A program made the translations under genes and the position numbers. This document shows positions 1,548-62,395 of a stretch of 64,000 nucleotides of DNA, piece by piece. The stretch lies in contig BQJP01000008.1 in assembly GCA_021604765.1 (NCBI GenBank), forward strand, positions 918-64,917, written 5' to 3'. The notes under the pieces were generated by a model. That model saw only the letters and a program-made list of their open reading frames with translations. It was not told where the DNA came from and did not search any database. Origin of the DNA: Thermodesulfobacteriota bacterium. Its GTDB lineage: Bacteria > Desulfobacterota_D > UBA1144 > Nemesobacterales > UBA2774. Each line of letters starts with the position of its first letter. Positions within the stretch are counted from its first letter, which is position 1.

Positions 1548-1558
1548 GGAGATATTTA

Positions 1559-9043: not shown

Positions 9044-9072
9044 TTGACAAATTCTTCAAAAAGTGCGATATT
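9044..9072 (+). promoter_or_regulatory. Sigma-70 promoter of the cold-shock gene (TTGACA-17-GATATT)
   Basis: TTGACA at 9044-9049, a 17-nt spacer, then GATATT at 9067-9072. This leaves a ~38-nt leader before cspA, as is common for csp genes. Confidence 0.5.
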
Positions 9073-9110
9073 AACCTCTCGAAGTAGATTTTCTAGGAGG
9101 AATTTATTTA

Positions 9111-9320
9111 ATGCAGGGAACAGTAAAATGGTTTAACAGCTCTAAAGGATACGGATTTATCCAATCTGATGAGATAGATAAAGACGTATTTGTTCATTAC
9201 AGTGTTATCGAAGGCGACGGTTATAAGAGCCTAGCAGAAGGTGAAGCTGTAGAGTTTGAAATAACAGACGGACCAAAAGGGCCTCAAGCAACAAAAGTTA
9301 TGAAAGCTGGCTCTGAGTAG
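9111..9320 (+). CDS. cspA: Cold-shock protein (CspA family)
   Basis: 69 aa: [18 protein letters not shown]…VFVHYS with RNP1/RNP2 motifs. RBS AGGAGGAA. Confidence 0.9.
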
Positions 9321-9477
9321 ACTTCTTTTTCAAAAGCCTATTATTAGCTTTTGATGATTTAGAAGATCCGATTGATATTTTGACCCTCCCTAACTTTAAT
9401 CAGGACATATTCTGATTAACATAGTTTTGTTGTATTTGCTTGACACTAAGCTTTAAACCCCTCAATATTTTAGTACT

Positions 9478-10239
9478 GTGTTTACACATAAAGATTTTAT
9501 AAGAAAAGTTGCGACTATCAGTTTGGCAGTCTTGATACTTCCTCTCCTGGGTCTCTACGAGGGTTCACAGTTCCAATTTGCCCAAATTGCATACAATGGA
9601 AGCTCAGATCCGAGACCAAGAGCATATAAAAGATTAATGAGCTCGCTTGAGCTAAGAACAAGTGTGCAGGTTTCATACAATAAAAAGACGTTATCACTAG
9701 CTGACCCTGATCTATTTAATTATCCCTTCCTTTATTTAGCAGGAGATGGCAGTTTTGAATCATTTTCTCCTGAAGAAAGAAGAAAGATCAGGAAATACCT
9801 TAAATTTGGGGGAACTTTAATAATTGATGATGTCTCCGGAGAAGAAAATTCAAGCTTTGATAAACAGATAAGAGAGGAACTAGTAAACATAATGCCAGAG
9901 ATCCCCCTTACTCCAATAGGACATGAGCATGTAGTTTATAAATCATTCTATCTCTTGAATTCAGTAAGTGGGAGAAAAGTAATTCAACCATACCTTGAAG
10001 GAATCACATTCAGAGATGAAGATAGGACGGCAGTTTTCTACTCTAGGAATGACTTAGGTGGAGCATGGTCTGAAGATGAATTTGGCAAATGGGAGTTTGA
10101 AGTTGTTCCAGGTGGGGAGGCTCAAAGAGAAAGAGCTATCAGATTGGGAATAAATATTATAATGTACGCACTAACCGGAAATTACAAAAAAGATCAAGTG
10201 CATACACCCTTTATCAAAAGACGACAGATGAATTTTTAA
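9478..10239 (+). CDS. DUF4159-like protein with an N-terminal membrane anchor
   Basis: 253 aa with an N-terminal TM. …YPFLYLAGDG…KFGGTLIIDD… resembles DUF4159 / class-I glutamine-amidotransferase-like fold proteins. GTG start. Confidence 0.5.
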   Translation: MFTHKDFIRKVATISLAVLILPLLGLYEGSQFQFAQIAYNGSSDPRPRAYKRLMSSLELRTSVQVSYNKKTLSLADPDLFNYPFLYLAGDGSFESFSPEERRKIRKYLKFGGTLIIDDVSGEENSSFDKQIREELVNIMPEIPLTPIGHEHVVYKSFYLLNSVSGRKVIQPYLEGITFRDEDRTAVFYSRNDLGGAWSEDEFGKWEFEVVPGGEAQRERAIRLGINIIMYALTGNYKKDQVHTPFIKRRQMNF

Positions 10240-10265
10240 CACATTTCAGATATATTCAAAAGAAT

Positions 10266-10559
10266 ATGAACGATATTAATATCTGCCCTTTATGTAAACG
10301 CTCCCTTCCTGAAAAACCAAGCAAACATCACCTAATACCTAAAACATTTAAGGGGAAAGAAATAGTACTCTTGCATAGAGTCTGTCACAGACAAATCCAT
10401 GCTAATTTCACTGAAAGAGAACTACTAAATCACTATCACACTATTGAGCGTATTCTTGAGAATGAAAATGTACAAAAGTTTGTGAAATGGGTTGAGAACA
10501 AACCTCCAGATTTTCATGTCAGAACTAAAAACACTTCCCTGAAAAGAGCGAAAAACTGA
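10266..10559 (+). CDS. Small HNH-type endonuclease-like protein
   Basis: 97 aa: CPLCK…HHLIPK…LHRVCHRQIH is an HNH-like metal-binding signature. Confidence 0.5.
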   Translation: MNDINICPLCKRSLPEKPSKHHLIPKTFKGKEIVLLHRVCHRQIHANFTERELLNHYHTIERILENENVQKFVKWVENKPPDFHVRTKNTSLKRAKN

Positions 10560-27570: not shown

Positions 27571-27654
27571 CATTTAAGCTTAATTTAATCTTGCCGTGTT
27601 AAAATCCTAACAGTAATTCAGATTTATCGATAAATCTAAGGTATGGAGGAATCA

Positions 27655-28899
27655 ATGTATAAAATCATTAGAGGGTACTACCCTCAGTTTATTCTAACAA
27701 TAGTATTTTTATTTGGAGTTATCGGCATGTTCTCAGCCGCACCCGTGGCGCGGGCTGATCTTCTGGTGGGTACTGACGGCCCGCCTGGTTCAGGTGCAGT
27801 TCGCCGTTTCAACAATTTCGGGACATACTTGGGTGATTTCACTACAGGAGGCCCCGGCTTGGACGGACCAGCGGCAGTGCAATTTGGTCCGGACGGCAAC
27901 GTCTACGTATTGAGCGGCAGTAACACAGTACTTCGCTACAACAGCACAACAGGTGTATTTATTGACGAATTCATTCCAACTGGTTCAAACGGTCTGGATG
28001 ATGCAAAGGACATGATATTTGGACCCGACGGCAACTTGTACCTAGCCAATAACGAAAATCCCGCAAACACTATTGGTGAGGGTGGCGAGGTCTTACGCTT
28101 CAACGGTACAACGGGAGCCTTCATGGGCACATTCATACAAAACGGCGCCGGACTGGGACCGCCCACCAATGTCGATACTGTGTCTGAAGCCATGAGCATG
28201 GCTTTCGGACCCGACGGTTTCTTCTACCTAGGAAATGACCCGCGCGAGGTGCTTGATCCTGAGGATGGAGATATACAGGGTTATATGGTTATGCGTTTTA
28301 ACGGCACAACCGGACAGTATATCGACACCCCATTCCCTCCCAATTTCCTGGGTTTGCACGATCCTAACGGCATGACTATCGGACCCGACTGCAATCTATA
28401 CATAAGCAGCGAGGGGCTTTCAAATAATGGTAACCCCCCAAATCCTAATGTTATATACCGTTTGAATCTTACGACCGGGAATAATACACCTGATACCATT
28501 GAAGAATTTGTTCCTTCAAACGGGTTCCTTGACGCCGACTTACCTGGTGGGCAACCAGGGCCCCCTAATAGAGGCATGATAGAGCCTGAGAAGATCGTCT
28601 TCGGTCCTAATGGTGATTTATACGTTACAAGCGGCGATACGGCTGAAGTTTGGCGCTACAATGGTACAACGGGAGCGATAGTTGGTGGCGGAGCGTTTGC
28701 CATGCAGGGGCTCGGTGCGGACTCGTCAGATCCCAAGGGGATTACCTTCTTCCCGGGCGAATCACTCCAGTGTGACATACCATTTCCTGTTGCACAGATT
28801 CCGACTCTTAGTCAATGGGGATTGGTTGCAATGGCAGGAGCTCTAGGAATAATAGCTTTCTTAGTGTTGACTATACGCAGAAAGAAAGCGGTAGCTTAG
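27655..28899 (+). CDS. Secreted 6-bladed beta-propeller-like repeat protein with C-terminal IPTL-CTERM sorting domain
   Basis: Signal peptide. About six repeats of [FGPDGNxY…V.R(F/Y)NGTTG.F…]. C-terminus …IPTLSQWGLVAMAGALGIIAFLVLTIRRKKAVA (IPTLxxWG + TM + basic). ATG 27655 has GGAGG 5 nt upstream. Confidence 0.75.
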   Translation: MYKIIRGYYPQFILTIVFLFGVIGMFSAAPVARADLLVGTDGPPGSGAVRRFNNFGTYLGDFTTGGPGLDGPAAVQFGPDGNVYVLSGSNTVLRYNSTTGVFIDEFIPTGSNGLDDAKDMIFGPDGNLYLANNENPANTIGEGGEVLRFNGTTGAFMGTFIQNGAGLGPPTNVDTVSEAMSMAFGPDGFFYLGNDPREVLDPEDGDIQGYMVMRFNGTTGQYIDTPFPPNFLGLHDPNGMTIGPDCNLYISSEGLSNNGNPPNPNVIYRLNLTTGNNTPDTIEEFVPSNGFLDADLPGGQPGPPNRGMIEPEKIVFGPNGDLYVTSGDTAEVWRYNGTTGAIVGGGAFAMQGLGADSSDPKGITFFPGESLQCDIPFPVAQIPTLSQWGLVAMAGALGIIAFLVLTIRRKKAVA

Positions 28900-33815: not shown

Positions 33816-34637
33816 TCAAGAGTTAGCAGAGTTCTCATAATCACACTCAGGCTTAACATATTCGGCTACATCTTTAATTGTCGCGTTCTTCCCACATAAG
33901 CAACATTTTGGATGTTTATTTACTTTTACAGTGTCAAAAGTCATTTTGAGTGCATTATACATTAAGAGACGGTCCTCCAATGTATCGCCTATTTCTAATA
34001 TTTCTTTTAATGTTTCAACAGCCTGCATTGTTCCCACGGTTCCGGCTACCGCACCTAAGATTCCAGCTTCCTGGCAGCTTGGCATCATCCCTTCAGGGGG
34101 AATCTCGGGATATAAACAACGGTAACAAGCTCCACCGTTATGTGGTTTAAAGACTGAGATCTGACCCTCAAACTGCAATATTGCTCCGGAAATTAGAGTT
34201 TTTTTCTCGAAATAGCAAGCATCATTAACCAAATACCGTGTCATAAAATTATCCGAACCATCAACAACTATATCAAAATTCTTTACGATGTCCCGTATGT
34301 TATCTTTGGTAATTTTGCTGTCGTACGCAATTATATCAACATCAGGATTTAATTTCTCAAGCTTTTCCTGAGCTGAATGTGTTTTAGGTTTTCCAATATC
34401 CTCAGTATAGTGAAGGACTTGTCTTTGAAGGTTTGATATTTCCACCTGATCAGAGTCGGCAATTCCTATGGTCCCTACTCCGGCGGCAGCTAAATATAGT
34501 GCAATTGGCGAACCCAGTCCTCCTACACCTAAACAAAACACCTTTGCATCTAAAAGTTTCTTTTGCCCTTCGCCACCAACTTCCGGCAGCAAAATGTGCC
34601 TACTGTATCTATAAATCTGGTCTTCAGTTAATTGCAA
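33816..34637 (-). CDS. MoeB/ThiF-family E1-like adenylyltransferase (no rhodanese domain, C-terminal Cys cluster)
   Basis: Nucleotide-binding GVGGLGSP, catalytic-region C…C, and C-terminal CCLCGK. 273 aa. Confidence 0.85.
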   Translation of the reverse strand: MQLTEDQIYRYSRHILLPEVGGEGQKKLLDAKVFCLGVGGLGSPIALYLAAAGVGTIGIADSDQVEISNLQRQVLHYTEDIGKPKTHSAQEKLEKLNPDVDIIAYDSKITKDNIRDIVKNFDIVVDGSDNFMTRYLVNDACYFEKKTLISGAILQFEGQISVFKPHNGGACYRCLYPEIPPEGMMPSCQEAGILGAVAGTVGTMQAVETLKEILEIGDTLEDRLLMYNALKMTFDTVKVNKHPKCCLCGKNATIKDVAEYVKPECDYENSANS

Positions 34638-34640
34638 TCT

Positions 34641-35057
34641 TCAACCTTCCGTAACTTCAATTTGCTCTTCATTAAACTGCCCATCAAAATCTTCTAAAAC
34701 CCAAGCTCTAGCATCACTATATTTTCCGCTCATGATAGAAAAAATAATATAGATCCAATCAGGCCAACCTCTTTGCCTATCAGTTTCTGAAGCTTTCGAG
34801 GGATGATCAGGGTGTGAGTGATAGATTCCTAGTATTTCCATTTGATTTCCTCTCGCCCATTCATCAGCTTCTTTAAAAGAAACAGGATCTAATTCATAAC
34901 GGTCATGGGCTCTTTGTGTGTTGAGATTTCCACATTCTTTGTAGTGGGTAATATTTCCGTTTGTGCCGATCATGACTCCGCAAACTTCGTGCGGGAACCC
35001 CGCTTCAGCGTGTTTAATCATTCCATCGTATGCCGATTTTGCTACTTTTACCACCAT
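34641..35057 (-). CDS. JAMM/MPN+ metalloprotease (Mec+/CysO-hydrolase-like)
   Basis: JAMM motif E…HSHPDHPSKASETD. 138 aa. Confidence 0.85.
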   Translation of the reverse strand: MVVKVAKSAYDGMIKHAEAGFPHEVCGVMIGTNGNITHYKECGNLNTQRAHDRYELDPVSFKEADEWARGNQMEILGIYHSHPDHPSKASETDRQRGWPDWIYIIFSIMSGKYSDARAWVLEDFDGQFNEEQIEVTEG

Positions 35058-35995
35058 ATACCTCCGCTCAAATATCTATATCCTCCATCAGGGAACACTG
35101 TAACGACCACTCCCTCTTCAAGGGTTTTCGCACACTCAATTGCAGCGTAAGCAACCGCTCCTCCTGAATGACCTACAAAAATGCCTTCCTTCTTTAGAAG
35201 GTCTTTCATTGTGTCATAAGCATCTTCTGTTGTAACTCCAACCAGTTCATCCGCCTTATGTGAATCATATATTCCAGGAACAATTGACGAAGGCATATGC
35301 TTCATCCCTTCAAGCCCATGTAAAGCCTCAGAGGGTTCAATAGAAATAGTTTTAATATCAGGATTAAATTCCTTAAGCCTTCTGCTGGTTCCCATAAATG
35401 TCCCGCTAGTGCCTAGACCAGCTAGAAAATGTGTTACCCTGCCTTCCGTCTGATCCCAAATTTCAACGGCTGTTGTTTCGTAATGAGACTGAGGGTTAGC
35501 CGGGTTATTATACTGATCAGGCATATAGTACTTATCCGGATTTTCAGCTTTTAATTTCCTGGCAAGCCTTATAGCTCCATCTGAGCCTTCAAGTGGATCT
35601 GAATAAATTATTTTCGCTCCAAAAGCTGTGAGCGTTTTTTTTCTTTCAATATTAATATTCATTGGCGTAACAAGCTCTACCTTATAACCTAGAGCTGCAC
35701 CAAACATAGCATATGCAATAGCGGTATTACCGGAGGAAGAATCCATCAGAATCTTATCATGTGTTAGTTGACCGGAGTTTATTCCATCTAAAATCATCCA
35801 CAGAGCTGGACGATCCTTAACAGAACCTCCGGGATTGAACCACTCGGCCTTAGCATAAACCTCAACACTGGGTTTTATCCCTGCAGTAATATTATTCAGT
35901 TTGATGAGAGGTGTATTTCCCACCAATTCAATTACGGAATTAGCTCTTTTTAATCCGCTTTCCGAAGATTTAATTCTGGCTAACGATAGGTTCAT
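35048..35995 (-). CDS. cysM: Cysteine synthase (CysM/CysK fold, PLP-dependent)
   Basis: PLP lysine …NPGGSVKDRPA…, plus GNT…, GTSGT and …SGG… motifs. Confidence 0.85.
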   Translation of the reverse strand: MNLSLARIKSSESGLKRANSVIELVGNTPLIKLNNITAGIKPSVEVYAKAEWFNPGGSVKDRPALWMILDGINSGQLTHDKILMDSSSGNTAIAYAMFGAALGYKVELVTPMNINIERKKTLTAFGAKIIYSDPLEGSDGAIRLARKLKAENPDKYYMPDQYNNPANPQSHYETTAVEIWDQTEGRVTHFLAGLGTSGTFMGTSRRLKEFNPDIKTISIEPSEALHGLEGMKHMPSSIVPGIYDSHKADELVGVTTEDAYDTMKDLLKKEGIFVGHSGGAVAYAAIECAKTLEEGVVVTVFPDGGYRYLSGGIWW

Positions 35996-36231
35996 TAAGT
36001 ACGCTCAATTACAAGTTTGTATATATCGCCTTCTTGGTGAAGATCTAATATTTTGTGTCCGTCCTGTTCAACACTCTTGGGGACGTTTATTAAAGGCTCT
36101 CCTTCACGTAAAGTTACCTCTAGCACTTCCCCTGTGGACATAGTTTCAAGTTTCAACTTAGTTTTTACAAAAGTCATAGGGCAAATTTCTTTTGTTATAT
36201 CTATCTGACTGTCTATTTTATATTCTGTCAT
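35995..36231 (-). CDS. TusA-like sulfurtransferase (CPxP)
   Basis: 78 aa: …EICPMTFVKTK… CPxP motif. The stop overlaps the cysM start. Confidence 0.8.
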   Translation of the reverse strand: MTEYKIDSQIDITKEICPMTFVKTKLKLETMSTGEVLEVTLREGEPLINVPKSVEQDGHKILDLHQEGDIYKLVIERT

Positions 36232-36536
36232 TTTACTAACCTTACATTAACTCTCAAATACCAATACTTTGGCATTTTAAGAGTACCATACAGGCACATT
36301 TGCAACAAATATTTGTGTTTGAGCGGGGGTCTAATATTTATTTAGAAATCATGTGTAAACTAAGTCTCATCTTCTATTTCAATGTCAATTATTTCAGATT
36401 CGTCTTGATTATTATTTTTAGAAATTTTCTCTTTTTTAGAACTCACGGATAACCTCCCTACCCAAAAAGCGATAAGGATTATCAATAAAAGTATTAGTAA
36501 TTTTCCCATTTAATATTATGTTTCGACCGGCAGAAA

Positions 36537-42419: not shown

Positions 42420-42491
42420 GGCGGCGTAGCTCAGGGGCAGAGCGGGGCTCTCATAAGGCCTGTGTCGGTGGTTCAAATCCACCCGTCGCCA
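42420..42491 (+). tRNA. tRNA-Met (anticodon CAT; elongator Met or Ile2/lysidine type)
   Basis: Cloverleaf: acceptor GGCGGCG/CGTCGCC, D-arm GCTC…GAGC, anticodon loop CTCATAA, T-arm GGTGG-TTCAAAT-CCACC. No encoded CCA. Confidence 0.85.
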
Positions 42492-42492
42492 C
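42443..42492 (+). repeat. 50-bp direct repeat copy 1 (3' half of tRNA-Met), putative attL
   Basis: Exact 50/50 identity with 58932-58981. Confidence 0.85.
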
Positions 42493-51988: not shown

Positions 51989-53647
51989 TTAATCAACTGG
52001 ACAAAAGCCCGTGTCTGTACCTGTACAACCAAACTCTCCTGGATCAACGTGACGGCTATTGCGTCCATCATTTGGATAATTCAAATAAGGAAATGATGTG
52101 CGGTATGGAAGCACATCATTTGCGTTAACACCATCGCCAATTCTATTGTGAGGAAAGATGTTGAAATCAGGATTTAATACTCCTACAGCTACACGGGATG
52201 TAATATCAATCACATCATCAATCACACGACGTCCGTTAGGAAATCCGGCAGGGTCATCATTGAACTCATCATCATCAAGAACGGTCAGGAAACCTAAACG
52301 GCTTTGCTGATCAGGCGGTGTTGGAGGAACTCCAGTGTTAAGTCTGAGCAGGTCAGCAATCGGTCCTGTTGGTGTTCCCTCAGGAGCAATAGGTGCTGTG
52401 TACTGTACTAGTGGTAAAAGATCAAGCCTTGGAACATTAGGTATAGGAAGAATGTTCGGGCCAAATAGAGCCTCATATACTGAGTTCAATACTCTAGCAA
52501 TTACTGGATCGAGAAAGAAATCTGAGAACTCTGCATCATTTTTTGGCTGAGCCATACTGAACTTATCTTTAAATCCAATACCAATGATTAGCTCGTTAAT
52601 TAGAGGATTAGCCATTCTTTGAATCTGAGTGAATCTTCTTGATAGTCTGGGATCTTCTCCAGGTCCTCTGAAAGTTTTCTTGGTAGGTCTTGAGCTTGTT
52701 CCCCACATACCTATTGTGGACTCTGGTTCTGAGGCGCTATGAATCTCGCCATCGCTAGTTAGAAGTTCTATTGGAACTTCTATGGCAATAGCGTTTACGT
52801 TATAACCAGAGAACTCATCAGAAGCATAGTTGTTAAAATCATCAGCATCTTGTTCATCAGTTAATACACCCTGTACAACAAAACCTTGGGTTCTGAAATT
52901 GAATGAATCGAATGCTGCGCCAAGATCTAGCCAGAACGGATCATCAACAGTACCGGCAAAAGATTTAACACCGTTATCAAGCTTATAAATACCCTGCTCA
53001 AATAATAATGGGTAATTAGGCATGGTTCTTGGGCCTGCATTGGTAGGAACTTTAAATAGTGATCCACCGTTAGCATTTTGAAGGACTGTACGTTTCTTTC
53101 CTTTTACCATTGTAACGGTATAGGACTGTCTTAGACCAAGTCCTTCAGACCCGGGTCCATCTAAAGCTGTAATTGCTGGTGGGACAACCAGCTGTCCAAC
53201 AGTTGAATTTCCGTTTAAGTCATCCGGAGAATTAGCTGGCGCATTTACACCACCAAGCGCACCAACATACGCAGTAAATACATTTGGTAATCGAATTTCA
53301 TTCTGAAAGCGAAATTCGAAAACTATATCTTCCACTGCGTCATGGTCGTTATCAACCCTAATTGCATATAGAATTTCAGGATCGAAGGGGAAATATGTAG
53401 GACCGTTTCCTGGTTCTAGAAACGGGTCGTAAGTTACAATCATTGTAACTTTGTCAGAAGCGCTAGGATCCGAAGGATCATAACTTACGAAAGCAAATAC
53501 ATCTGGTATATCGGCTTCGTCATCTATCGCAGTTATAGGAGCCTCTCTATGATTAGCTGCCTGTGCGATATTTTGAATACTTGTAATAGACATTGTTAAG
53601 CCCATTATCAATAATGCAAATACGGTGAAAACTCTTGAAATACTCAT
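51989..53647 (-). CDS. Secreted DUF4331-family protein
   Basis: Signal peptide, then …ANHREAP…DDEADIPDVFAF… The true start is likely ATG 53647 (MSISRVF) with GGAGGT 7 nt upstream. Confidence 0.6.
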   Translation of the reverse strand: MSISRVFTVFALLIMGLTMSITSIQNIAQAANHREAPITAIDDEADIPDVFAFVSYDPSDPSASDKVTMIVTYDPFLEPGNGPTYFPFDPEILYAIRVDNDHDAVEDIVFEFRFQNEIRLPNVFTAYVGALGGVNAPANSPDDLNGNSTVGQLVVPPAITALDGPGSEGLGLRQSYTVTMVKGKKRTVLQNANGGSLFKVPTNAGPRTMPNYPLLFEQGIYKLDNGVKSFAGTVDDPFWLDLGAAFDSFNFRTQGFVVQGVLTDEQDADDFNNYASDEFSGYNVNAIAIEVPIELLTSDGEIHSASEPESTIGMWGTSSRPTKKTFRGPGEDPRLSRRFTQIQRMANPLINELIIGIGFKDKFSMAQPKNDAEFSDFFLDPVIARVLNSVYEALFGPNILPIPNVPRLDLLPLVQYTAPIAPEGTPTGPIADLLRLNTGVPPTPPDQQSRLGFLTVLDDDEFNDDPAGFPNGRRVIDDVIDITSRVAVGVLNPDFNIFPHNRIGDGVNANDVLPYRTSFPYLNYPNDGRNSRHVDPGEFGCTGTDTGFCPVD

Positions 53648-53681
53648 AATTCTTACCTCCATTGAAGTTGTTTTGAATATA

Positions 53682-53709
53682 TATACGGAGGTTGTTCTGA
53701 ATTGGAGCA
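53682..53709 (-). promoter_or_regulatory. ECF-type promoter TGCTCCAA-N14-CGTATA upstream of DUF4331
   Basis: Minus strand: TGCTCC (53709-53704), a 16-nt spacer, then CGTATA (53687-53682). It shares the motif found at 55081, 55651 and 57085. Confidence 0.55.
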
Positions 53710-53769
53710 TATATTTTATAGAACTAATATGTATTTTATAATATATATGTATTATTTTGACTTCTGGAA

Positions 53770-55772: not shown

Positions 55773-56381
55773 TTATTCGGCAGGCAACATCTCATTTTCT
55801 TGAGAAGCTTGTATTAATAGGAAACAACCTGTTACAGTGGAAATACTTTCATGAACACTATGTGCATCAGCTCGAATATAATCTCCTTTACCAAAGGTCA
55901 TTCCGCCCATGCTTAACTCACCTTCTATGATGTAACACTCTTCAGCTTCTGCATGAACATGGTCTGGGAAAGTCGATCCAGGATCCATTTTTACAAGAAC
56001 AGTTGAATACTTTCGGGCAGGATCTTCATAAAGCTGTTTTACTTTGACACCATCTACGACTTCAACCCAATCACCTTGATTTTCTCGCACAAATAGATAA
56101 CCGGTTTCCTTCTCTGCTACATCCCTTTCTTTTTGGATTTTTGTAAAAAGTTTATCCTCTAAGCCTCTTGGTTCTTTGCGGGGCTCAGTACTATAAGTTA
56201 CGTCTTCCATTATTTCGTTGAAGTAATCAAGATGCACAGATGCTGAGCCATTTTCTTTAAGCATAGCCTCAAATACTGCTTTATCTTCGTCACCTAAAAC
56301 TCCTAATGCATAAGAAGCAGCCAGATCTTGAATTTCTTCGTCAGTGTACTTTTGACTCATATAAATGTCCTTGTTCTTCAT
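55773..56381 (-). CDS. Cytoplasmic anti-sigma factor: RskA-like N-terminal sigma-binding domain + C-terminal cupin (ChrR-like architecture)
   Basis: N-terminus …LAASYALGVLGDEDKAVFEAML… with no Cys and no TM. C-terminal cupin …VLVKMDPGSTFPDHVH…EECYIIEGEL… It overlaps the ECF sigma gene upstream. Confidence 0.65.
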   Translation of the reverse strand: MKNKDIYMSQKYTDEEIQDLAASYALGVLGDEDKAVFEAMLKENGSASVHLDYFNEIMEDVTYSTEPRKEPRGLEDKLFTKIQKERDVAEKETGYLFVRENQGDWVEVVDGVKVKQLYEDPARKYSTVLVKMDPGSTFPDHVHAEAEECYIIEGELSMGGMTFGKGDYIRADAHSVHESISTVTGCFLLIQASQENEMLPAE

Positions 56382-57021
56382 TAATTATATTCTTCATTTT
56401 AACCATTGCAACTCTGATAGTGCTCTTTACAGATCCTACGGGAATACCAACTTTATCCGCAATTTCACTATGGCTGTACTGATGATAATAAGAAAGCTCC
56501 ACGACCTCTTTTTGCTTAGGTGTGAGTTGAGCCATGGCATGTTTTGTGATTTTTCTCATTTCTGAAGCAACATAAGTATCTTCAGGATTATCTGTTCCCG
56601 TCACCATGCTATCATCAATGCTATCGTCAATGTGAACTGTTTTTGCACTTTTTCTAATCTTATCAATTGAACGGCTCCTGGTAATCATCAATAACCAACT
56701 TAAAGGCTTGCTCAGATCTGAATCATATTTGGATGCGTTGTTCCATACATACATAAATACCTCAAGGGCAACTTCTTCAGCCTCTTCCGGATTAGAAATA
56801 ATCTTATGAGACATACTGTAAACTAGTCTTACAGTTTGTTGGTAAAACGTTCTCATTGCATTTTCATCGCCATTTGAAATTAGCGATAATAATGTTTTTA
56901 ATTCATTTTCCCTGTCAGTGTGCTCAGTAGCAACTGTAGCAGTATCCTGATTCATTTTTTCCCTGTAACTATCTAAGAATAATATGTTAGAATCATTTAT
57001 CTTTGCCATTATATCACACAC
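56341..57021 (-). CDS. ECF sigma factor (cognate to the cupin anti-sigma)
   Basis: Sigma-70 region 2 …EVALEVFMYVWNNASKYD… and region 4 …YSHSEIADKVGIPVGSVKSTI…. Confidence 0.8.
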   Translation of the reverse strand: MCDIMAKINDSNILFLDSYREKMNQDTATVATEHTDRENELKTLLSLISNGDENAMRTFYQQTVRLVYSMSHKIISNPEEAEEVALEVFMYVWNNASKYDSDLSKPLSWLLMITRSRSIDKIRKSAKTVHIDDSIDDSMVTGTDNPEDTYVASEMRKITKHAMAQLTPKQKEVVELSYYHQYSHSEIADKVGIPVGSVKSTIRVAMVKMKNIINEEQGHLYESKVH

Positions 57022-57084
57022 TCTATTCTATATCCAATCATTAAATTACCTTTTTATAGTTACAGAAATACTTATTCGAATAGT

Positions 57085-57112
57085 AATACGACAACTAGAT
57101 CAAATTGGATCA
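57085..57112 (-). promoter_or_regulatory. Autoregulatory ECF promoter TGATCCAA-N14-CGTATT
   Basis: Minus strand: TGATCC (57112-57107), a 16-nt spacer, then CGTATT (57090-57085). It lies upstream of the ECF/anti-sigma operon. Confidence 0.6.
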
Positions 57113-57208
57113 CTTATCTTTGTACTTAAGAAGAAAACATAGAAATGGAGCTGTATTAATAAGAGGTATTCTGCTATGCTTGCAGTAGTTTAGGATAGTT
57201 TGCAAGTT

Positions 57209-57799
57209 CTATTCATCTAATAAATTTAGAGTGTTTTTTAGTTTATCTTTAGCTAGTCTGATTGTGCTTTTTACAGAACCGACAGGCATATCCAACATTT
57301 CTGCAATTTCTGACTGATTGAATTGATAGAAGTAGACAAGCTCTATAACTTTTCTCTGCTTTGGGCTTAATTCCAATAAAGCATCCTGAACGATTTTACG
57401 CTTTTCCTGCCCTAAAACTGTATCTTCCGGGCTAAGATCAGTATTCGTCAATTCTCTTTCGAGCGAATCAGAAATCTCCATGGTGACTTTCCGTGAACGT
57501 AGTTTGTCTATGGCACGTGAGCGTGCAATCATTACAAGCCATGTAGTCGGGTTACTTTGTGAAGGATCAAAATTTGAAGCATTTTTCCAGACATACTTAT
57601 ATACATCTAGGGCAACTTCCTCAGATTCAGATGTATCACTAAGTATTTTCAGCACAAGGCTATATATCAGTCTATTAGACTCATCGTATAATTCACCTAG
57701 TGCATTATCATTTTGTTTTGCAATCTGTGTTAAAAGACGTTGCCATCTTTGATTTCTTTCTAAGGAAGTTTCGGATTTTATATTGATATCTGATGACAT
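57209..57799 (-). CDS. ECF sigma factor
   Basis: Region 2 …EVALDVYKYVWKNASNFD… and region 4 …FNQSEIAEMLDMPVGSVKSTIRLAK…. Confidence 0.8.
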   Translation of the reverse strand: MSSDINIKSETSLERNQRWQRLLTQIAKQNDNALGELYDESNRLIYSLVLKILSDTSESEEVALDVYKYVWKNASNFDPSQSNPTTWLVMIARSRAIDKLRSRKVTMEISDSLERELTNTDLSPEDTVLGQEKRKIVQDALLELSPKQRKVIELVYFYQFNQSEIAEMLDMPVGSVKSTIRLAKDKLKNTLNLLDE

Positions 57800-57990
57800 A
57801 TCTTATCCGTAAGCGGTTATGTAATTTTATACTATACAAAATTAACTGTATAGCGCAGCTAATATTAATTTATCACATAAAGTGAGCGAAATTTCAAAAG
57901 CGGACGTATACATGTTACAAAATATAGAAAAGTTATATGTAATTGTACTTTGATGTTACAAGATGTACCATATTATAATTGAGGAATAGC

Positions 57991-58806
57991 ATGCCTTACG
58001 ACGACAGAATCGAAGAGTTAATATCGGCTTATACACTTGGTGTACTAGACGGTAATGAACTTAAAGAACTCGAAGATTATATAAGAAAAAACCCTGGTGT
58101 TTACCAAGAATTAATCAATGAGAATGAAGCAGTATTCTCTCAGTTAGCTTATGTCCTAAAAGTCTCTAGTCCAAGACCAGGATTACGAAATGAACTATTG
58201 TCAGATATACAAAAAGAAAAAAAGGTTTATGAAATTGAGACCAAACCGCCTTTCTGGCAAAGGTTACAGCCCCTGTGGCTGGGGTTAGGCAGTGCTGTTG
58301 CAGCAATTCTGATAATTTCTCTATTTACCTATAGTTCGTCTCTCAATAACACTGTAAAAGAGCAGCAAGCTAAGATTTCAAATCTTGAGGCTCTTATCTC
58401 CGAAAAAGATTCGGAACTAGCTTTGCTACAAGAAGAATTCGGCTCGCAATCCGAAATGTTAGCGTTTCTTGATAATCCTGAAGTTGTTATTATAAATCTT
58501 GTAAAAACAGAGCCCAATCTAAAAGCTGTGGCCAGAGTGCTCTGGAACCCAGGGGATGATGAAGCACTGTTTTATGGAATAAACCTCCCGGAGGTTCCTG
58601 AAGGCAAGACTTACCAATTATGGGCAATAGCAGGAGAAAAGCCTGAAAGCCTGGGTGTATTTAATGTTGACAATCATGGCAACAATGTTCATCTAATAAA
58701 ATCTCTCAGTAATTTTGGTGACATCGGTACTTTTGCAGTCAGCCTTGAGCCAGCAGGCGGGGTTCCTCTACCTACCGGGAAGGTATATCTAGCCGGTGAA
58801 ATTTAG
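57991..58806 (+). CDS. Membrane anti-sigma factor (RskA / anti-sigma-K type)
   Basis: N-terminus …LISAYTLGVLDGNELKELEDY…, a single TM (…LGLGSAVAAILIISLF…), and a periplasmic C-domain. It is divergent from the ECF gene at 57799, with its own TTGATG-18-TATAAT promoter. ATG 57991 has GAGGA upstream. Confidence 0.7.
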   Translation: MPYDDRIEELISAYTLGVLDGNELKELEDYIRKNPGVYQELINENEAVFSQLAYVLKVSSPRPGLRNELLSDIQKEKKVYEIETKPPFWQRLQPLWLGLGSAVAAILIISLFTYSSSLNNTVKEQQAKISNLEALISEKDSELALLQEEFGSQSEMLAFLDNPEVVIINLVKTEPNLKAVARVLWNPGDDEALFYGINLPEVPEGKTYQLWAIAGEKPESLGVFNVDNHGNNVHLIKSLSNFGDIGTFAVSLEPAGGVPLPTGKVYLAGEI

Positions 58807-58931
58807 CCATTATATTTATTTTTGATCAACCTAAAATATGCAAATAAATGGAAGAACAATCCCACTACAATCACATAAGTTCATAAATAGCATGATAAAT
58901 CTAACAATTCAAGTGAGTTGTGCACTTGGAA

Positions 58932-58981
58932 CGGGGCTCTCATAAGGCCTGTGTCGGTGGTTCAAATCCACCCGTCGCCAC
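58932..58981 (+). repeat. 50-bp direct repeat copy 2 (3' half of tRNA-Met), putative attR
   Basis: Exact copy of 42443-42492. There is no 5' tRNA half here, so it is not a functional tRNA. Confidence 0.85.
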
Positions 58982-59007
58982 CAATCATTTCAATGTCTTA
59001 AGCTGAT

Positions 59008-59229
59008 TCATAAATTTCCTTCGATGCCCAAGTCAGTGGATTTGCCAGTAACAGAAGAGTATTTCCCTAATATGTCAGTCCCTTTTCTCACACTTTCTTC
59101 TGGATGACTATATCTCTCGGTTATCTTTACTGTTGAATGGCCTAGTAGCTTTGCTACTGCATGAAGAAGTATTTCAGACCCTACTAATCTTGTAGCTACA
59201 GTATGACGTAAGCCGTGAAATCCGAGACC
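59008..59229 (-). pseudogene. Tyrosine recombinase (phage integrase) C-terminal remnant
   Basis: Minus-strand translation GLGFHGLRHTVATRLVGSEILLHAVAKLLGHSTVKITERYSHPEE…* carries the catalytic-box R, H.LGH and Y. An in-frame stop lies immediately upstream, leaving only ~73 codons. Confidence 0.75.
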
Positions 59230-59351
59230 TTATTTATTCTGATCTATCAATCTCACAATTTGTATATTAAATACAAAAAGAAAAATATATAATATGGTAT
59301 TGAACCTTTCTGGCTCATGGTGTTACTTACTGTTCAAACGGATAGGAAAAA

Positions 59352-59930
59352 ATGAATAAAACACCGGAAAATACAAATCATTCAGACTTGCAACTGATAG
59401 AGGAAATTGTGGATAGCAACAAAGAGGCGTTTAAAGCTCTCTATGAAAAGTATGTACGGCAGGTTTTCTCTTTTGTTTACAAAATAACGAGGGATTCAAA
59501 GCTTACAGAGGAAGTTGTAAACGATACCATGTTTGAGGTTTGGAAAGGTGCTGCAAATTTCAAAGGAAATTCAACTGTATTGACGTGGATTTTTGGAATT
59601 GCACATAACAAATCGATGAACGAGCTTAGAAAGAAAAGACCTGAAGCCCTCGATCCTGAAGAGTTCTCAAGATTTGCAAGTTCCGATGAAACTGCGGAGG
59701 AAATTGTGGTGAAGAAAGATAGATCAGAAAGAATGAATTATGCTATGAGCGAACTTTCCCCAGAGCATAGAACAGTTTTAGAGCTTACTTTTTATAACGG
59801 TTTGTCATATCAGGAAATAGCAGAAATTATGGAATGTCCCGTAAATACAGTAAAAACCAGGATGTTTTATGCAAAAAATAAGCTTAAGGAAAGTCTCAGT
59901 AAATACGGAATCAATCAACAGGAGTTATAG
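59352..59930 (+). CDS. ECF sigma factor
   Basis: Region 2 …EEVVNDTMFEVWKGAANF… and region 4 …LSYQEIAEIMECPVNTVKTRM…. Confidence 0.8.
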   Translation: MNKTPENTNHSDLQLIEEIVDSNKEAFKALYEKYVRQVFSFVYKITRDSKLTEEVVNDTMFEVWKGAANFKGNSTVLTWIFGIAHNKSMNELRKKRPEALDPEEFSRFASSDETAEEIVVKKDRSERMNYAMSELSPEHRTVLELTFYNGLSYQEIAEIMECPVNTVKTRMFYAKNKLKESLSKYGINQQEL

Positions 59931-59932
59931 CT

Positions 59933-60643
59933 ATGAGCGATAAAAATATATCACACGAAGAAATCAATCTTCTTCTCCCATGGTACTTAAACGGAACACT
60001 TGAGTCAGAGGAAAAAGAGATAGTAAAGAAACATCTCTCAGACTGTTCGCTATGTCATATGGAAATTGAAGAGCTCAAAATGTTGAGAAGCACCGTACTG
60101 GAAGCTAACGAAGCTCAGAATGAAATGCTAAGTGTCCCTGTTGAAAAGATGGAAATGAACGTCATGGATAGAATTGACTCCTTTGAGGAATCGATTGAGC
60201 AAAAAACTCAAAGGGTTCCAATTGATGATACAGATTCAATATGGTCCAAGGTGCAGGGATTCTTTGATGGGATCGCCCTACCTTCACTATCACCAGTAGG
60301 AATGGCCGCACTTTTTGTCATACAGTTTGCAATTATATTAGGTCTGGCCGGGACGCTATTTTTTACAGAGCCTGAGTATGAAGTCCTTAGCGGAAACACC
60401 CAGACTGAAGTAATTAGCGGGCCGACGATTATGCTTTCATTCAAAGACAGTGCAACAGAAAAAGAAATACGCGAAATTTTAAGGGAAATTGATGGCCGAA
60501 TAATTGACGGTCCCAAAGCTGGTGGATTATATATTGTAGAGTTACCTGAAGAAATGACTAATGAGAAAATAATGGAAAATGTAATTGATGATCTGAGCTC
60601 AAATACAAAAGTGATAAAAAATGTCTTTAAGGGAAGCAAGTAA
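59933..60643 (+). CDS. Membrane anti-sigma factor with zf-HC2-type N-terminus
   Basis: H..DCSLCHMEIEEL (HxxxCxxC), one TM (…ALFVIQFAIILGLAGTLFF…), and a periplasmic C-domain. Confidence 0.65.
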   Translation: MSDKNISHEEINLLLPWYLNGTLESEEKEIVKKHLSDCSLCHMEIEELKMLRSTVLEANEAQNEMLSVPVEKMEMNVMDRIDSFEESIEQKTQRVPIDDTDSIWSKVQGFFDGIALPSLSPVGMAALFVIQFAIILGLAGTLFFTEPEYEVLSGNTQTEVISGPTIMLSFKDSATEKEIREILREIDGRIIDGPKAGGLYIVELPEEMTNEKIMENVIDDLSSNTKVIKNVFKGSK

Positions 60644-60676: not shown

Positions 60677-62395
60677 ATGTTGAGAATGAAAATAAACATA
60701 ATAATAGTTGTTTTAATATATGTCTTTTGTTTAGCATATATTGCTGGTGCCCAGGAGAATAAGCCACCTAGCAATCCCAATATTCCTACTAATCCTAATG
60801 ACCCAACTTTCCCAAGAGATCCGAATCAAGGACAACGCATCATCGTACCACCACCGAATAAAGTAATTGTAATCCCGGATGTAGATGATAATCCCAGAAT
60901 ACCGGACAATAACCCTAATAAGCCAGACCGTAACCCACCACGAATACCTGACTATCCAAATAATCCAGGCAGAGTACCCGGTACTCCTGACAGATTAGAT
61001 CCTGAGCCTGAAATACCAAGAGAGCCTATCGCTGAACCAGAGATCCCAAGGGACCCCGTCGCTGAGCCTGATATTCCAACTGTGCCGGATGTACCTGAGC
61101 AACCACAAGGTGTACCAAAAGATCCTGTTGTTGATCAAAATGACCCCAATATTCCCAGACCTGATGACCAAATACCGGCCGCACCAAAACTTCCGGATGA
61201 CCCTTCATTAATTCAGCCTGACATGGAAACTGAATTTCTCACAGCTCCGGTATTTAAAGATGTAACACCCAAAATATTAGAAAGCGACCTAAATAATTAT
61301 ATCCCGAATCAAGTACTGGTGTTGTTAGAGGGCTCGTCAGAAAAGCAGCAAGACATTGATTCTCTGTCCCAAAGCTATAACATTAATAGTATAGACAGTT
61401 CTGTACTAAGCTCTATAAATGCTACTATGGTGCTTTTTGAAATACCTGACAACAGAGGTGTCATTGACGTCTCTAGAACCCTGGCAGCGGATTCAAGAAC
61501 TTTAGCCGCTCAACCTAATTTTTACTTCGAGGGCATGAGCGAAAACAACATTCAATATGGTGTACAGAAGATTAAAGCTGATTCTGCACATAGTATTTCT
61601 ACCGGGAAGGGGATAAAAGTGGCAGTAATAGATACTGGTATAGATTACAGTCATAAAGCTATAGCAAATAAAATATTTATGAAATCAGATTTTGTGGATA
61701 CAGGCTCCTATGAGTTTGATGTACACGGAACATCAATAGCCGGGATTATTGCTTCAACATCAATTGAAGACGGTATAACCGGAGTAGCGCCTGACGTTAA
61801 GATAATTGCAGCAAGAGCTTGTTGGAAAGATCCCAAAAATAAAATTAATACCCTATGTTCATCTAATACTCTTGCTAAAGCACTAAACTACGCCATTTTA
61901 AATAAAGCGCATATCATAAACTTGAGTTTAGGCGGTCCAAAGGACAATATCGTTTCCCTGCTGATAACTAAAGCTAGTAGAGCTGGTATTGTGATAGTTG
62001 CTGCTGCTGGTAATGGAGGCCCCAAAGGCAAGCCGGTCTATCCTGCGGCTTTAAAGGAGGTAATTGCTGTTTCTGCAACTGATTCAGATGATAAACTCTA
62101 CCAATCCTCGACCAGAGGTAAGTATATAGATTTATCAGCACCTGGTGTAGATATCTTAAGTACTGCTCCTGGAAACTCCTGGCAGGTTATTTCAGGAACA
62201 TCCATGGCCGCGGCTCATGTAACAGGGGCTATAGCACTGGTTCTTCAGAAACACCCTGAGTTATCAGCGTTTCAAATGAAAAGCTTGCTTGGATCTACTT
62301 CCATAGATCTGGGCAAGAAAGGCAAAGATATTGAGTTTGGAGAGGGTAGAATAGATGCTTTAAGCGCTCTTCACAAATTAAAGACTAACCCCTAA
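60677..62395 (+). CDS. Secreted subtilisin-like S8 serine protease with N-terminal Pro-rich low-complexity region
   Basis: Signal peptide, about 150 aa of P/D/N/E-rich repeats (…PEIPREPIAEPEIPRDPVAEPDIP…), and the catalytic triad VIDTGID / HGTSIAG / GTSMAAAHVTG. Confidence 0.85.
   Translation: MLRMKINIIIVVLIYVFCLAYIAGAQENKPPSNPNIPTNPNDPTFPRDPNQGQRIIVPPPNKVIVIPDVDDNPRIPDNNPNKPDRNPPRIPDYPNNPGRVPGTPDRLDPEPEIPREPIAEPEIPRDPVAEPDIPTVPDVPEQPQGVPKDPVVDQNDPNIPRPDDQIPAAPKLPDDPSLIQPDMETEFLTAPVFKDVTPKILESDLNNYIPNQVLVLLEGSSEKQQDIDSLSQSYNINSIDSSVLSSINATMVLFEIPDNRGVIDVSRTLAADSRTLAAQPNFYFEGMSENNIQYGVQKIKADSAHSISTGKGIKVAVIDTGIDYSHKAIANKIFMKSDFVDTGSYEFDVHGTSIAGIIASTSIEDGITGVAPDVKIIAARACWKDPKNKINTLCSSNTLAKALNYAILNKAHIINLSLGGPKDNIVSLLITKASRAGIVIVAAAGNGGPKGKPVYPAALKEVIAVSATDSDDKLYQSSTRGKYIDLSAPGVDILSTAPGNSWQVISGTSMAAAHVTGAIALVLQKHPELSAFQMKSLLGSTSIDLGKKGKDIEFGEGRIDALSALHKLKTNP

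What the first reader, a model, noticed from the sequence alone, without database searches (positions are those of the whole stretch)
33816..36231. Sulfur-carrier-type cysteine biosynthesis operon (TusA-CysM-JAMM-MoeB) with no ubiquitin-like carrier gene present
Four tightly overlapping genes encode:
- a CPxP TusA
- a CysM-type PLP synthase
- a JAMM/MPN+ peptidase with the HSHPDHPS motif
- a rhodanese-less MoeB/ThiF E1 with a C-terminal Cys cluster

In the described Mycobacterium-type pathway, CysM uses thiocarboxylated CysO, the JAMM enzyme releases cysteine, and MoeZ (E1 + rhodanese) charges CysO. Here a TusA replaces the rhodanese function.

No 65-100 aa beta-grasp ORF ending in GG is visible in or beside the operon. 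The only small ORF nearby is a 50-aa hydrophobic peptide at 36361-36510.

The carrier is either encoded elsewhere, is too diverged to see, or the system operates differently.
Basis: partly seen in the sequence, partly recalled or inferred. Interest (0 to 1): 0.65.

Follow-up and report, generated by a model that had tools for sequence, protein, structure and literature searches.

The report
Cysteine-synthesis operon missing its sulfur-carrier gene
A Dadabacteria operon for making cysteine with a ubiquitin-like sulfur-carrier protein has all the helper enzymes but no carrier gene; the carrier is most likely encoded elsewhere in the genome, though I could not show that.

Summary
On the minus strand at 33816-36231 lie four tightly packed genes: a TusA-family protein, a CysM-like PLP enzyme, a JAMM/MPN+ peptidase and a rhodanese-less MoeB/ThiF E1. 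All have intact catalytic motifs and evolve under strong purifying selection (dN/dS 0.08-0.11).

No ThiS/MoaD/CysO-like ORF exists anywhere in the 64 kb window, in about 37 related Dadabacteria genome loci, or in 39 related metagenome contigs.

The only non-Dadabacteria loci with the same four genes in the same order (L046, L047, L089, L090) carry a 93-94 aa carrier ending AIAGG+2 and a NIL-domain gene between tusA and cysM. Here the tusA stop and cysM start overlap (TAATG), so the Dadabacteria operon lacks that two-gene segment.

Outside Dadabacteria, 23 of 24 loci with an E1 next to the JAMM gene also encode a carrier, free or fused to the E1. An E1 without a carrier is therefore lineage-specific in this sample. 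About half of the Dadabacteria loci have also lost the E1 from the operon.

TusA and an E1-fused rhodanese domain never occur together, which supports the idea that TusA replaces rhodanese.

Best explanation (about 0.65): the carrier acts in trans, possibly shared with other pathways. This could not be shown because no whole Dadabacteria genome was searchable. It is a new variant of a known kind, of moderate interest.

The parts
35995..36231 (-). TusA-family sulfur-transfer protein, 78 aa, active-site Cys in the motif EICPMTFVK
   Evidence: Pfam PF01206 at 1.8e-19, covering 69 of 70 profile positions. It belongs to a subfamily with the motif CP[MI][TN][FY]VK, shared with CysM/JAMM-linked TusA proteins of Deltaproteobacteria MAGs, anammox bacteria and a Nitrospirae MAG. 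dN/dS is 0.083.
35048..35995 (-). CysM-like PLP-dependent cysteine synthase, 315 aa, with C-terminal tail RYLSGGIWW
   Evidence: Pfam PALP 2.5e-66. NCBIfam cysM TIGR01138 scores 358 bits, below its cut-off of 394. The closest solved structures are E. coli and Salmonella CysM; M. tuberculosis CysM scores lower. The tail is homologous to KYLSTR[IL]W[ED] in the carrier-linked relatives. dN/dS is 0.078.
34641..35057 (-). JAMM/MPN+ zinc peptidase (Mec+/HcyD-like), 138 aa, overlapping the cysM stop by 10 nt
   Evidence: Pfam Prok-JAB 2e-20. E24, H80, H82, S90 and D93 are invariant in 13 relatives. dN/dS is 0.107 overall and 0.108 in the clade that lacks the E1.
33816..34637 (-). MoeB/ThiF-type E1 adenylyltransferase, 273 aa, without a rhodanese domain
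   Evidence: Pfam ThiF 3.7e-84. NCBIfam MoeB subfamily NF004281 scores 306.5 bits, above its cut-off of 266. Full-length alignment to E. coli ThiF and MoeB keeps the ATP-binding, Asp, Cys and two CxxC motifs. dN/dS is 0.081. On an NJ tree it is sister to the E1 of L046 and L047.
35993..35997 (-). tusA stop and cysM start overlap (TAATG). In the closest complete operons, the carrier gene and a NIL-domain gene sit at this position
   Evidence: Sequence. L046, L047, L089 and L090 have a 93-94 aa ThiS-family gene plus a 78 aa NIL gene between tusA and cysM. In the Dadabacteria-type loci where the junction is on the contig (27 of them metagenome contigs), tusA and cysM abut or overlap.
36360..36509 (-). 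Neighbouring 49 aa membrane peptide between purQ and tusA. It is not a carrier
   Evidence: No Pfam hit. It has one hydrophobic helix followed by an acidic tail, and no GG. It is conserved (LIILIAFW.G...VIDI) in 15 related loci. It is absent from L004, L005 and L008.

Best explanation
**What it is.** This is a reduced version of the protein-thiocarboxylate cysteine pathway. The ubiquitin-like sulfur carrier is supplied in trans from another locus.

**Proposed mechanism (inferred by analogy with the M. tuberculosis CysO pathway).**
1. The E1 adenylates the C-terminal glycine of a ThiS/MoaD-family carrier encoded elsewhere.
2. A persulfide on the TusA cysteine converts the adenylate to a thiocarboxylate. 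TusA stands in for the rhodanese domain that MoeZ-type E1s carry.
3. CysM forms the PLP-aminoacrylate from O-phospho- or O-acetylserine, and the thiocarboxylate attacks it.
4. After an S-to-N acyl shift, the JAMM peptidase hydrolyses the carrier-cysteine adduct. This releases cysteine and regenerates the carrier.

**Shown here.**
- The gene identities.
- Intact catalytic motifs.
- Purifying selection on all four genes.
- Absence of a carrier gene in the window and in all related loci.
- Its presence at the tusA-cysM junction in the nearest full operons.

**Inferred.**
- Every chemical step above.
- The existence and location of the trans carrier.
- That the ancestral Dadabacteria operon lost a carrier-plus-NIL segment.
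For: **The retained enzymes are functional**
- An E1 has no known substrate other than a carrier C-terminus. Here it is intact and conserved, with dN/dS 0.081.
- The JAMM motif is invariant. JAMM dN/dS is 0.107 overall and 0.108 in lineages whose operon lacks the E1.
- JAMM overlaps cysM by 10 nt, which suggests translational coupling.

**The operon is homologous to carrier-containing operons**
- L046 and L047 show 59-60% identity for CysM, 60-62% for the E1 and 47-52% for TusA.
- The Dadabacteria E1 is sister to theirs on the NJ tree.
- Those operons, together with L089 and L090, read TusA-ThiS-NIL-CysM-JAB-ThiF.

**Components of this pathway are often unlinked**
- 15 non-Dadabacteria CysM-JAMM loci have neither an E1 nor a carrier within reach.
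- 6 loci have a JAMM-carrier pair without CysM.
- A metagenomic variant reads carrier-NIL-CysM-E1 without JAMM.
- In M. tuberculosis, moeZR (Rv3206c) is unlinked from cysO and cysM (Rv1335, Rv1336). It also serves MoaD (PMC3227635).

**TusA and rhodanese are complementary**.
Against: **No carrier was found in the lineage**
- No Dadabacteria carrier gene was found anywhere. Only about 20 kb per relative and the 64 kb window could be read.
- The one protein search with a carrier profile returned only close relatives of the query. None sat on a contig whose length matches a Dadabacteria chromosome. That result is uninformative rather than negative.

**The arrangement is unusual**
- Outside Dadabacteria, an E1 next to the JAMM gene is accompanied by a carrier in 23 of 24 loci. 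An E1 without a carrier is therefore unusual.

**The E1 has been lost repeatedly**
- The E1 has been lost from the operon in several Dadabacteria lineages that do not group together on the CysM tree.
- This would also fit progressive decay of the carrier-dependent branch.
Confidence: 0.65

Rival explanations
1. **Carrier-independent operation.** After loss of the carrier gene, CysM works as an ordinary sulfhydrylase on free sulfide or thiosulfate, or takes sulfur directly from a TusA persulfide. The E1 and JAMM are kept for another job, such as Moco or thiamine carrier activation or deconjugation, or they are slowly being lost.
For: - The carrier and NIL genes are absent in all Dadabacteria-type loci.
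- The E1 is absent from about half of the genome loci, in lineages scattered on the CysM tree.
- The triad of TusA, CysM and JAMM without an E1 or carrier recurs in anammox bacteria (L052, L055, L065) and in a Nitrospirae MAG (L045).
- The CysM is closest to thiosulfate-using E. coli CysM among solved structures.
Against: - A JAMM peptidase has no role in sulfide, thiosulfate or persulfide chemistry. Yet its catalytic residues are invariant, and its dN/dS is 0.108 in the clade that lacks the E1.
- JAMM overlaps cysM in every locus.
- The E1 is also under strong purifying selection where it is present.
- Absence from the operon does not mean absence from the genome.
Confidence: 0.2
2. **Carrier in cis.** The C-terminal tail of CysM (...RYLSGG-IWW) is trimmed after GG by the JAMM peptidase. 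It is then adenylated and thiocarboxylated, and swings into the active site as a built-in carrier.
For: - CysM is the only operon protein with GG near its C-terminus.
- The SGG[IL]WW form is conserved in the 120 closest homologues.
- It is found mainly in lineages that keep the E1.
Against: - The tail aligns with the ordinary RYLSTGVF motif of E. coli CysM, and with KYLSTR[IL]W[ED] of the carrier-linked relatives L046 and L047.
- GG is replaced by EG, ER, GE or DG in other Dadabacteria that keep JAMM. L003 has an E1 with the tail SGELWW.
- The terminal WW is invariant, which does not fit a discarded propeptide.
- E1 enzymes recognise the beta-grasp body of a carrier, not a bare tail (established knowledge).
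Confidence: 0.03
3. **Carrier missed in the window.** A carrier gene is present in the window but went undetected because it is very short, very diverged, or overlaps another gene.
For: Small beta-grasp proteins are hard to detect by sequence. There is a conserved 49 aa ORF directly upstream.
Against: - The six-frame search with a CysO-like HMM at E<=10 gave nothing in the window or in 37 related loci. The same search found free or fused carriers in 30 other loci.
- No ORF of 40 aa or more ends with GG within 8 residues of its end, except CysM, NuoN and three other ORFs that no later search identified as carriers.
- Pfam at E<=1 on the small ORFs gave no ThiS hit.
- The intergenic gaps in the operon are 0-3 nt.
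- The 49 aa peptide is a transmembrane helix with an acidic tail.
Confidence: 0.02

Closest known systems
M. tuberculosis CysO / CysM / Mec+ / MoeZ protein-thiocarboxylate cysteine pathway (Burns et al. 2005, from my own knowledge; summarised in PMC3227635)
   Same: A CysM-type PLP enzyme lies next to a JAMM hydrolase, and an E1 of the MoeB/ThiF family activates the carrier. Pathway genes are not all linked: moeZR is elsewhere in the genome and is shared with Moco synthesis.
   Different: No cysO gene lies in or near the operon. The E1 has no rhodanese domain, and a TusA gene is present instead. The CysM scores higher against E. coli CysM (226.8 bits as a single sequence, 325 bits as a profile) than against M. 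tuberculosis CysM (about 182 and 271 bits).
Unnamed TusA-ThiS-NIL-CysM-JAB-ThiF clusters of Thermodesulfobacteriota and Deltaproteobacteria MAGs (L046, L047, L089 = CP129479.1, L090)
   Same: The four genes are homologous, in the same order and orientation. The E1 lacks rhodanese. TusA belongs to the same CP[MI][TN]F subfamily. Identities are 59-60% for CysM and 60-62% for the E1.
   Different: Those clusters carry a 93-94 aa carrier (ending ...PAIAGG plus 2 residues) and a 78 aa NIL-domain gene between tusA and cysM. L089 and L090 also have a small sulfite-reductase-like gene and a ThrC-like gene upstream. All of these are absent here.
Wolinella succinogenes HcyS / HcyD / HcyF / MetY homocysteine pathway (Krishnamoorthy and Begley 2011, from my own knowledge)
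   Same: The logic is the same: a carrier thiocarboxylate, an E1, a JAMM peptidase and a PLP sulfhydrylase. The carrier carries extra residues after GG that the JAMM enzyme removes, as the AIAGG+2 carriers of L046 and L047 suggest.
   Different: The PLP enzyme there is an O-acetylhomoserine sulfhydrylase and the product is homocysteine. A carrier gene is present.
E. coli MoeB/MoaD thiocarboxylation assisted by IscS and TusA or YnjE (reviewed in PMC5372717; YnjE and IscS described in PMC3227635)
   Same: A rhodanese-less E1 relies on a separate small sulfur-relay protein.
   Different: That system is part of Moco synthesis, with no CysM or JAMM involved.

Membership tests
Protein-thiocarboxylate cysteine pathway (CysO/CysM/Mec+/MoeZ type) | CysM-type PLP enzyme encoded next to a JAMM hydrolase | tested here: met
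   PALP 2.5e-66 and Prok-JAB 2e-20, with the two genes overlapping by 10 nt. The pairing is conserved in all related loci.
Protein-thiocarboxylate cysteine pathway (CysO/CysM/Mec+/MoeZ type) | Beta-grasp ThiS/MoaD-family carrier with a C-terminal GG | tested here: not met
   None in the 64 kb window or in any Dadabacteria-type locus. The rest of the genome could not be searched, so the feature is unmet for the locus and untested for the organism.
Protein-thiocarboxylate cysteine pathway (CysO/CysM/Mec+/MoeZ type) | E1 adenylyltransferase with a sulfur-transfer (rhodanese) module | tested here: not met
   The E1 is present and intact, but it is 273 aa with a ThiF domain only. A separate TusA gene occupies the role. 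TusA and rhodanese are mutually exclusive in the sampled loci.
Protein-thiocarboxylate cysteine pathway (CysO/CysM/Mec+/MoeZ type) | O-phosphoserine as the acceptor substrate and the carrier thiocarboxylate as the sulfur donor | not testable with these tools
   This needs enzyme assays. Sequence shows only a subfamily-specific loop (HGLEGxKHM) and a C-terminal xW[EDW] tail shared with the carrier-linked relatives.
JAMM/MPN+ metallopeptidases | Motif E...HxH-x7-S-x2-D | tested here: met
   E24, H80, H82, S90 and D93 are invariant in 13 sequences.
MoeB/ThiF E1-like adenylyltransferases | Nucleotide-binding GxGxxG, Arg finger, catalytic Asp, two CxxC zinc motifs, crossover-loop Cys | tested here: met
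   Full-length alignment to 1ZFN (ThiF) and 1JW9 (MoeB). NCBIfam NF004281 scores above its cut-off.
TusA (PF01206) | Pfam score above the gathering threshold, and a conserved active-site Cys | tested here: met
   69.8 bits against a threshold of 28.6. The Cys is conserved in all homologues.
TusA (PF01206) | Canonical CPxP motif | tested here: not met
   The motif is C-P-M-T here and CP[MI][TN] across the subfamily.
Cysteine synthase B, CysM equivalog (TIGR01138) | Score at or above the curated cut-off | tested here: not met
   358 bits against a cut-off of 394.2. The cysKM subfamily model scores 333 against 344.15. It is a cysteine-synthase-family protein outside the curated equivalogs.

The most novel reading that the evidence does not exclude
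Dadabacteria, and perhaps anammox bacteria, run a truly carrier-less version of the pathway. No beta-grasp carrier exists in the genome. A TusA persulfide, or another non-ubiquitin-like donor, feeds CysM directly. The invariant JAMM peptidase has acquired a new substrate or role tied to CysM. The E1 is a leftover that is being lost lineage by lineage.
Probability: 0.12. Interest if true: 0.75.

Novelty: new variant of a known kind. Interest (0 to 1): 0.4.

Why it matters
Protein-thiocarboxylate routes to cysteine and homocysteine are considered prokaryotic forerunners of ubiquitin chemistry. Their parts (carrier, E1, JAMM, PLP enzyme) are usually read together from one operon.

Here a whole class-level lineage keeps the E1, JAMM, CysM and a TusA under strong selection but has no carrier gene in the operon.

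- **If the carrier is in trans:** this would show that one carrier can be shared between pathways. Operon-based pathway calls would then miss or mis-score this route in Dadabacteria, including the small complete Dadabacteria-lineage genomes recovered here (1.4-2.4 Mb).
- **If no carrier exists:** the JAMM peptidase and TusA would have a new role in cysteine synthesis.

The strict either/or pattern of TusA versus E1-fused rhodanese also gives a clean comparative argument for what TusA does in these systems.

Tried and rejected
1. **Exact look-up of the window's CysM.** It is not on record.
2. **Finding a Dadabacteria carrier with the last protein search.** I used a profile of the L046 and L047 carriers.
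   - The family is so large that the 120 listed hits are all at least 71% identical to the query.
   - None lies on a contig with the length of a known Dadabacteria chromosome.
   - The result is uninformative.
3. **Metagenome scan with the E1, hoping to find relocated E1 genes next to a carrier.** Every hit at 68% identity or more was the same carrier-less operon.
4. **Graham and Tully 2021 supplements (PMC8115339) for thiS or moaD calls.** The stored table is cut before the relevant columns, and no KO identifiers are held.
5. **Literature searches.** TusA+CysO+CysM and Dadabacteria+thiamine+sponge returned no papers. TusA/thiocarboxylate/JAMM returned papers, but none described this gene arrangement.
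6. **Cis-carrier idea (CysM tail GG-IWW).** Rejected because GG is not conserved and the tail is homologous to ordinary CysM tails.
7. **GG-terminated small ORFs in related loci.** All were alternative frames of known genes or a PurS protein.
8. **Riboswitch or other RNA upstream.** Rfam finds only one tRNA-Met in the window.
9. **Promoter and terminator scan.** Counts are not above shuffled expectation.
10. **First dN/dS script.** It timed out and was rerun successfully.
Full report
**What is in the sequence**

Four genes lie on the minus strand between 33816 and 36231:
- TusA-family protein, 36231..35995, 78 aa.
- CysM-like PLP enzyme, 35995..35048, 315 aa.
- JAMM/MPN+ peptidase, 35057..34641, 138 aa.
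- MoeB/ThiF E1, 34637..33816, 273 aa.

The tusA stop and the cysM start share one base (TAATG). cysM and the JAMM gene overlap by 10 nt. The JAMM gene and the E1 gene are 3 nt apart.

Pfam assigns the four proteins to TusA (1.8e-19), PALP (2.5e-66), Prok-JAB (2e-20) and ThiF (3.7e-84). The E1 has no rhodanese domain.

NCBIfam places the E1 above the cut-off of the MoeB subfamily model NF004281. CysM falls below the curated cysM and cysKM cut-offs. The JAMM protein matches the desampylase model weakly.

The JAMM motif (E24, H80-x-H82-x7-S90-x2-D93) is invariant in 13 relatives.

The E1 aligns end to end with E. coli ThiF and MoeB. It keeps the Arg finger, GxGGLG, the Asp of D..DN, both CxxC pairs and the crossover-loop cysteine.

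The TusA motif is CPMT, not CPxP, and the subfamily motif is CP[MI][TN][FY]VK.

**No carrier in the window**

- No ORF of 40 aa or more ends with GG within its last eight residues, apart from CysM, NuoN and three other ORFs that no later search identified as carriers.
- A greedy gene call leaves 39 small ORFs, and none looks like a beta-grasp carrier.
- I built an HMM from 11 CysO-like carriers found in other loci and ran it against six-frame translations. It detected free or fused carriers in 30 unrelated loci. It found nothing in the window or in any related locus at E<=10.
- Pfam at E<=1 on the unassigned small ORFs gave no ThiS hit.
- phmmer with ThiS, MoaD, TtuB and CysO sequences recalled from memory gave none either.
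- The 49 aa ORF at 36360-36509 is a conserved membrane peptide with an acidic tail.
- Rfam finds only a tRNA-Met in the window.

**Lineage**

The closest proteins and loci are labelled Candidatus Dadabacteria or Thermodesulfobacteriota MAGs. NCBI ranks Dadabacteria as a class of Thermodesulfobacteriota.

The synteny ParA-ParB-PurS-PurQ-(peptide)-TusA-CysM-JAMM-(E1)-NuoN-FtsK-LolA is conserved, including in complete chromosomes.

**Comparative anatomy**

A scan of GTDB species genomes with a JAMM alignment returned 80 loci. About 29 are from the Dadabacteria lineage and 51 are from other phyla.
- All Dadabacteria loci have TusA-CysM-JAMM, with tusA and cysM abutting.
- About half also have the E1. 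The rest lack it within 10 kb.
- None has a carrier.

A metagenome scan with the E1 added 39 contigs at 68-94% identity. Wherever the contig reaches far enough, these carry the same four genes in the same order and no carrier. 27 of them include the tusA-cysM junction.

The only non-Dadabacteria loci with all four genes and a rhodanese-less E1 are L046 and L047. They show 59-60% identity for CysM, 60-62% for the E1 and 47-52% for TusA. Between tusA and cysM they carry two extra genes:
- a 93-94 aa carrier ending ...PAIAGGAF or ...PAIAGGIS;
- a 78 aa NIL-domain gene.

Two further genomes found through the carrier show the full cluster. Its order is ThrC-like, small NIR_SIR sulfite reductase, TusA, ThiS, NIL, CysM, JAB, ThiF, radical SAM, Na/sulfate symporter.

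On neighbour-joining trees:
- The Dadabacteria E1 is sister to the E1 of L046 and L047.
- The Dadabacteria CysM clade is sister to a group containing L046, L047, L039, L043 and the anammox loci.

The simplest reading is that the Dadabacteria operon derives from a carrier-containing cluster by loss of the carrier-NIL segment. The direction of change is inferred, not shown.

**How unusual this is**

Outside Dadabacteria:
- 24 loci have an E1 next to the JAMM gene, and 23 of them also encode a carrier.
- The carrier is a separate gene in 7 of these and an N-terminal domain of the E1 in 16. These are the carrier-E1-rhodanese fusions of Verrucomicrobia, Eisenbacteria and others.
- 15 CysM-JAMM loci have neither an E1 nor a carrier.
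- 6 loci have a JAMM-carrier pair without CysM.

A metagenomic variant reads carrier-NIL-CysM-E1 followed by a large TusA-domain protein, with no JAMM gene.

The modules are therefore shuffled freely. An E1 without a carrier, however, is seen only in the Dadabacteria lineage.

TusA and an E1-fused rhodanese are mutually exclusive:
- TusA with a rhodanese-less E1 occurs in L046, L047, L089, L090 and all E1-bearing Dadabacteria loci.
- Rhodanese without TusA occurs in 20 loci.
- The two together occur in none.

In L045, TusA is fused to a small sulfite reductase. In L089 and L090 such a reductase is the upstream neighbour of tusA. This hints at where TusA obtains its sulfur.

**Selection**

Pairwise NG86 dN/dS medians are 0.083 for TusA, 0.078 for CysM, 0.107 for JAMM and 0.081 for the E1. 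In the clade whose operon lacks the E1, JAMM is at 0.108 and TusA at 0.100. All four genes, including the JAMM peptidase in operons that lack both carrier and E1, are functional genes.

**The cis-carrier idea**

CysM ends ...RYLSGGIWW, and this ending is conserved in the 120 closest homologues. Several points count against a built-in carrier:
- The tail aligns with RYLSTGVF of E. coli CysM, and with KYLSTR[IL]W[ED] of the carrier-linked relatives.
- GG becomes EG, ER, GE or DG in other Dadabacteria that keep JAMM.
- The terminal WW is invariant.

I regard this idea as very unlikely.

**CysM type**

As a single sequence or as a profile of 23 JAMM-linked CysM proteins, the best solved matches are E. 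coli and Salmonella CysM (226.8 and 325 bits). M. tuberculosis CysM scores about 182 and 271 bits. The acceptor substrate cannot be read from the sequence.

**Interpretation**

An intact, conserved E1 and JAMM peptidase imply a substrate with a carrier-type C-terminus. The most likely explanation (about 0.65) is a ThiS/MoaD-family carrier encoded elsewhere, possibly shared with other pathways.

There is precedent in M. tuberculosis. MoeZR is unlinked from cysO and cysM and also serves MoaD (PMC3227635).

The main rival (about 0.2) is that the carrier-dependent branch has been abandoned and CysM uses sulfide, thiosulfate or a TusA persulfide. The repeated loss of the E1 fits this view. The universally conserved JAMM peptidase does not.

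**What I could not do**

No tool gave access to whole Dadabacteria genomes.
- The carrier-profile protein search was saturated by close relatives of the query.
- The E1 metagenome scan found only the in-operon copies.

The decisive test is a ThiS/MoaD profile search of the complete chromosomes listed under next steps.

**Verdict**

This is a new variant of a known kind, of moderate interest (0.4).

Noticed in passing
window 36360-36509 (-): A 49 aa single-helix membrane peptide with an acidic tail lies between purQ and tusA. It is conserved (LIILIAFW.G...VIDI) in 15 related Dadabacteria loci and has no Pfam match.
   Followed up: partly
L045, about 8940-10410 (+): In a Nitrospirae MAG, a small NIR_SIR-type sulfite reductase is fused to a C-terminal TusA domain next to CysM-JAMM. 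In L089 and L090 the same reductase is a separate gene directly upstream of tusA. This suggests TusA takes sulfur from sulfite reduction.
   Followed up: partly
L041, L050, L056, L059, L060, L062, L066, L070-L073, L079, L080, L083 (E1 genes): These are triple fusions of a CysO-like carrier, an E1 and a rhodanese domain, about 480-530 aa, placed next to CysM-JAMM. They occur in Verrucomicrobia, Eisenbacteria, Armatimonadota and others. L050 has the domain order carrier-rhodanese-E1. The carrier's C-terminal GG is internal, so it must be released by cleavage, presumably by the adjacent JAMM peptidase.
   Followed up: partly
L138-L170 (about 30 metagenome contigs): A variant cluster reads carrier-NIL-CysM-E1 followed by a protein of about 780 aa containing a TusA domain, with no JAMM gene. 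It is the mirror image of the Dadabacteria case: a carrier without a JAMM peptidase.
   Followed up: no
L052, L055, L065 (anammox: Candidatus Subterrananammoxibius, Jettenia, Brocadia sapporoensis): These read CysM-JAMM-TusA with no E1 or carrier within 10 kb. It is the same three-gene core as in the Dadabacteria loci that lack the E1, in a different gene order.
   Followed up: partly
L011, about 9061-9990: In one Dadabacteria MAG the CysM C-terminus is replaced by unrelated residues (...SSSHFSQTADIDI), and the E1 is absent. This may be a frameshift, an assembly error or decay.
   Followed up: no
window 27643-28899 (+): A 418 aa secreted repeat protein carries an IPTL-CTERM sorting signal (PF18203, 7.2e-07).
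   Followed up: partly
window 55773-60643: A cluster of three ECF sigma factors (56341-57021, 57209-57799, 59352-59930) lies with a ChrR-cupin anti-sigma-like protein and two other putative anti-sigma proteins. It is followed by a subtilase (60677-62395).
   Followed up: partly
window 49-3248 and 7831-8955: SufB (C-terminal part), SufC, SufD and a Rieske protein sit at the left edge of the window. A class-V aminotransferase (cysteine-desulfurase-like) lies 5 kb further on. Apart from the operon itself, these are the only other sulfur-mobilising genes I recognised in the window.
   Followed up: partly
window 51989-53710 (-) and 42420-42492 (+): A large DUF4331 protein (5.6e-98), and the only RNA gene found in the window, a tRNA-Met (CAT).
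   Followed up: yes
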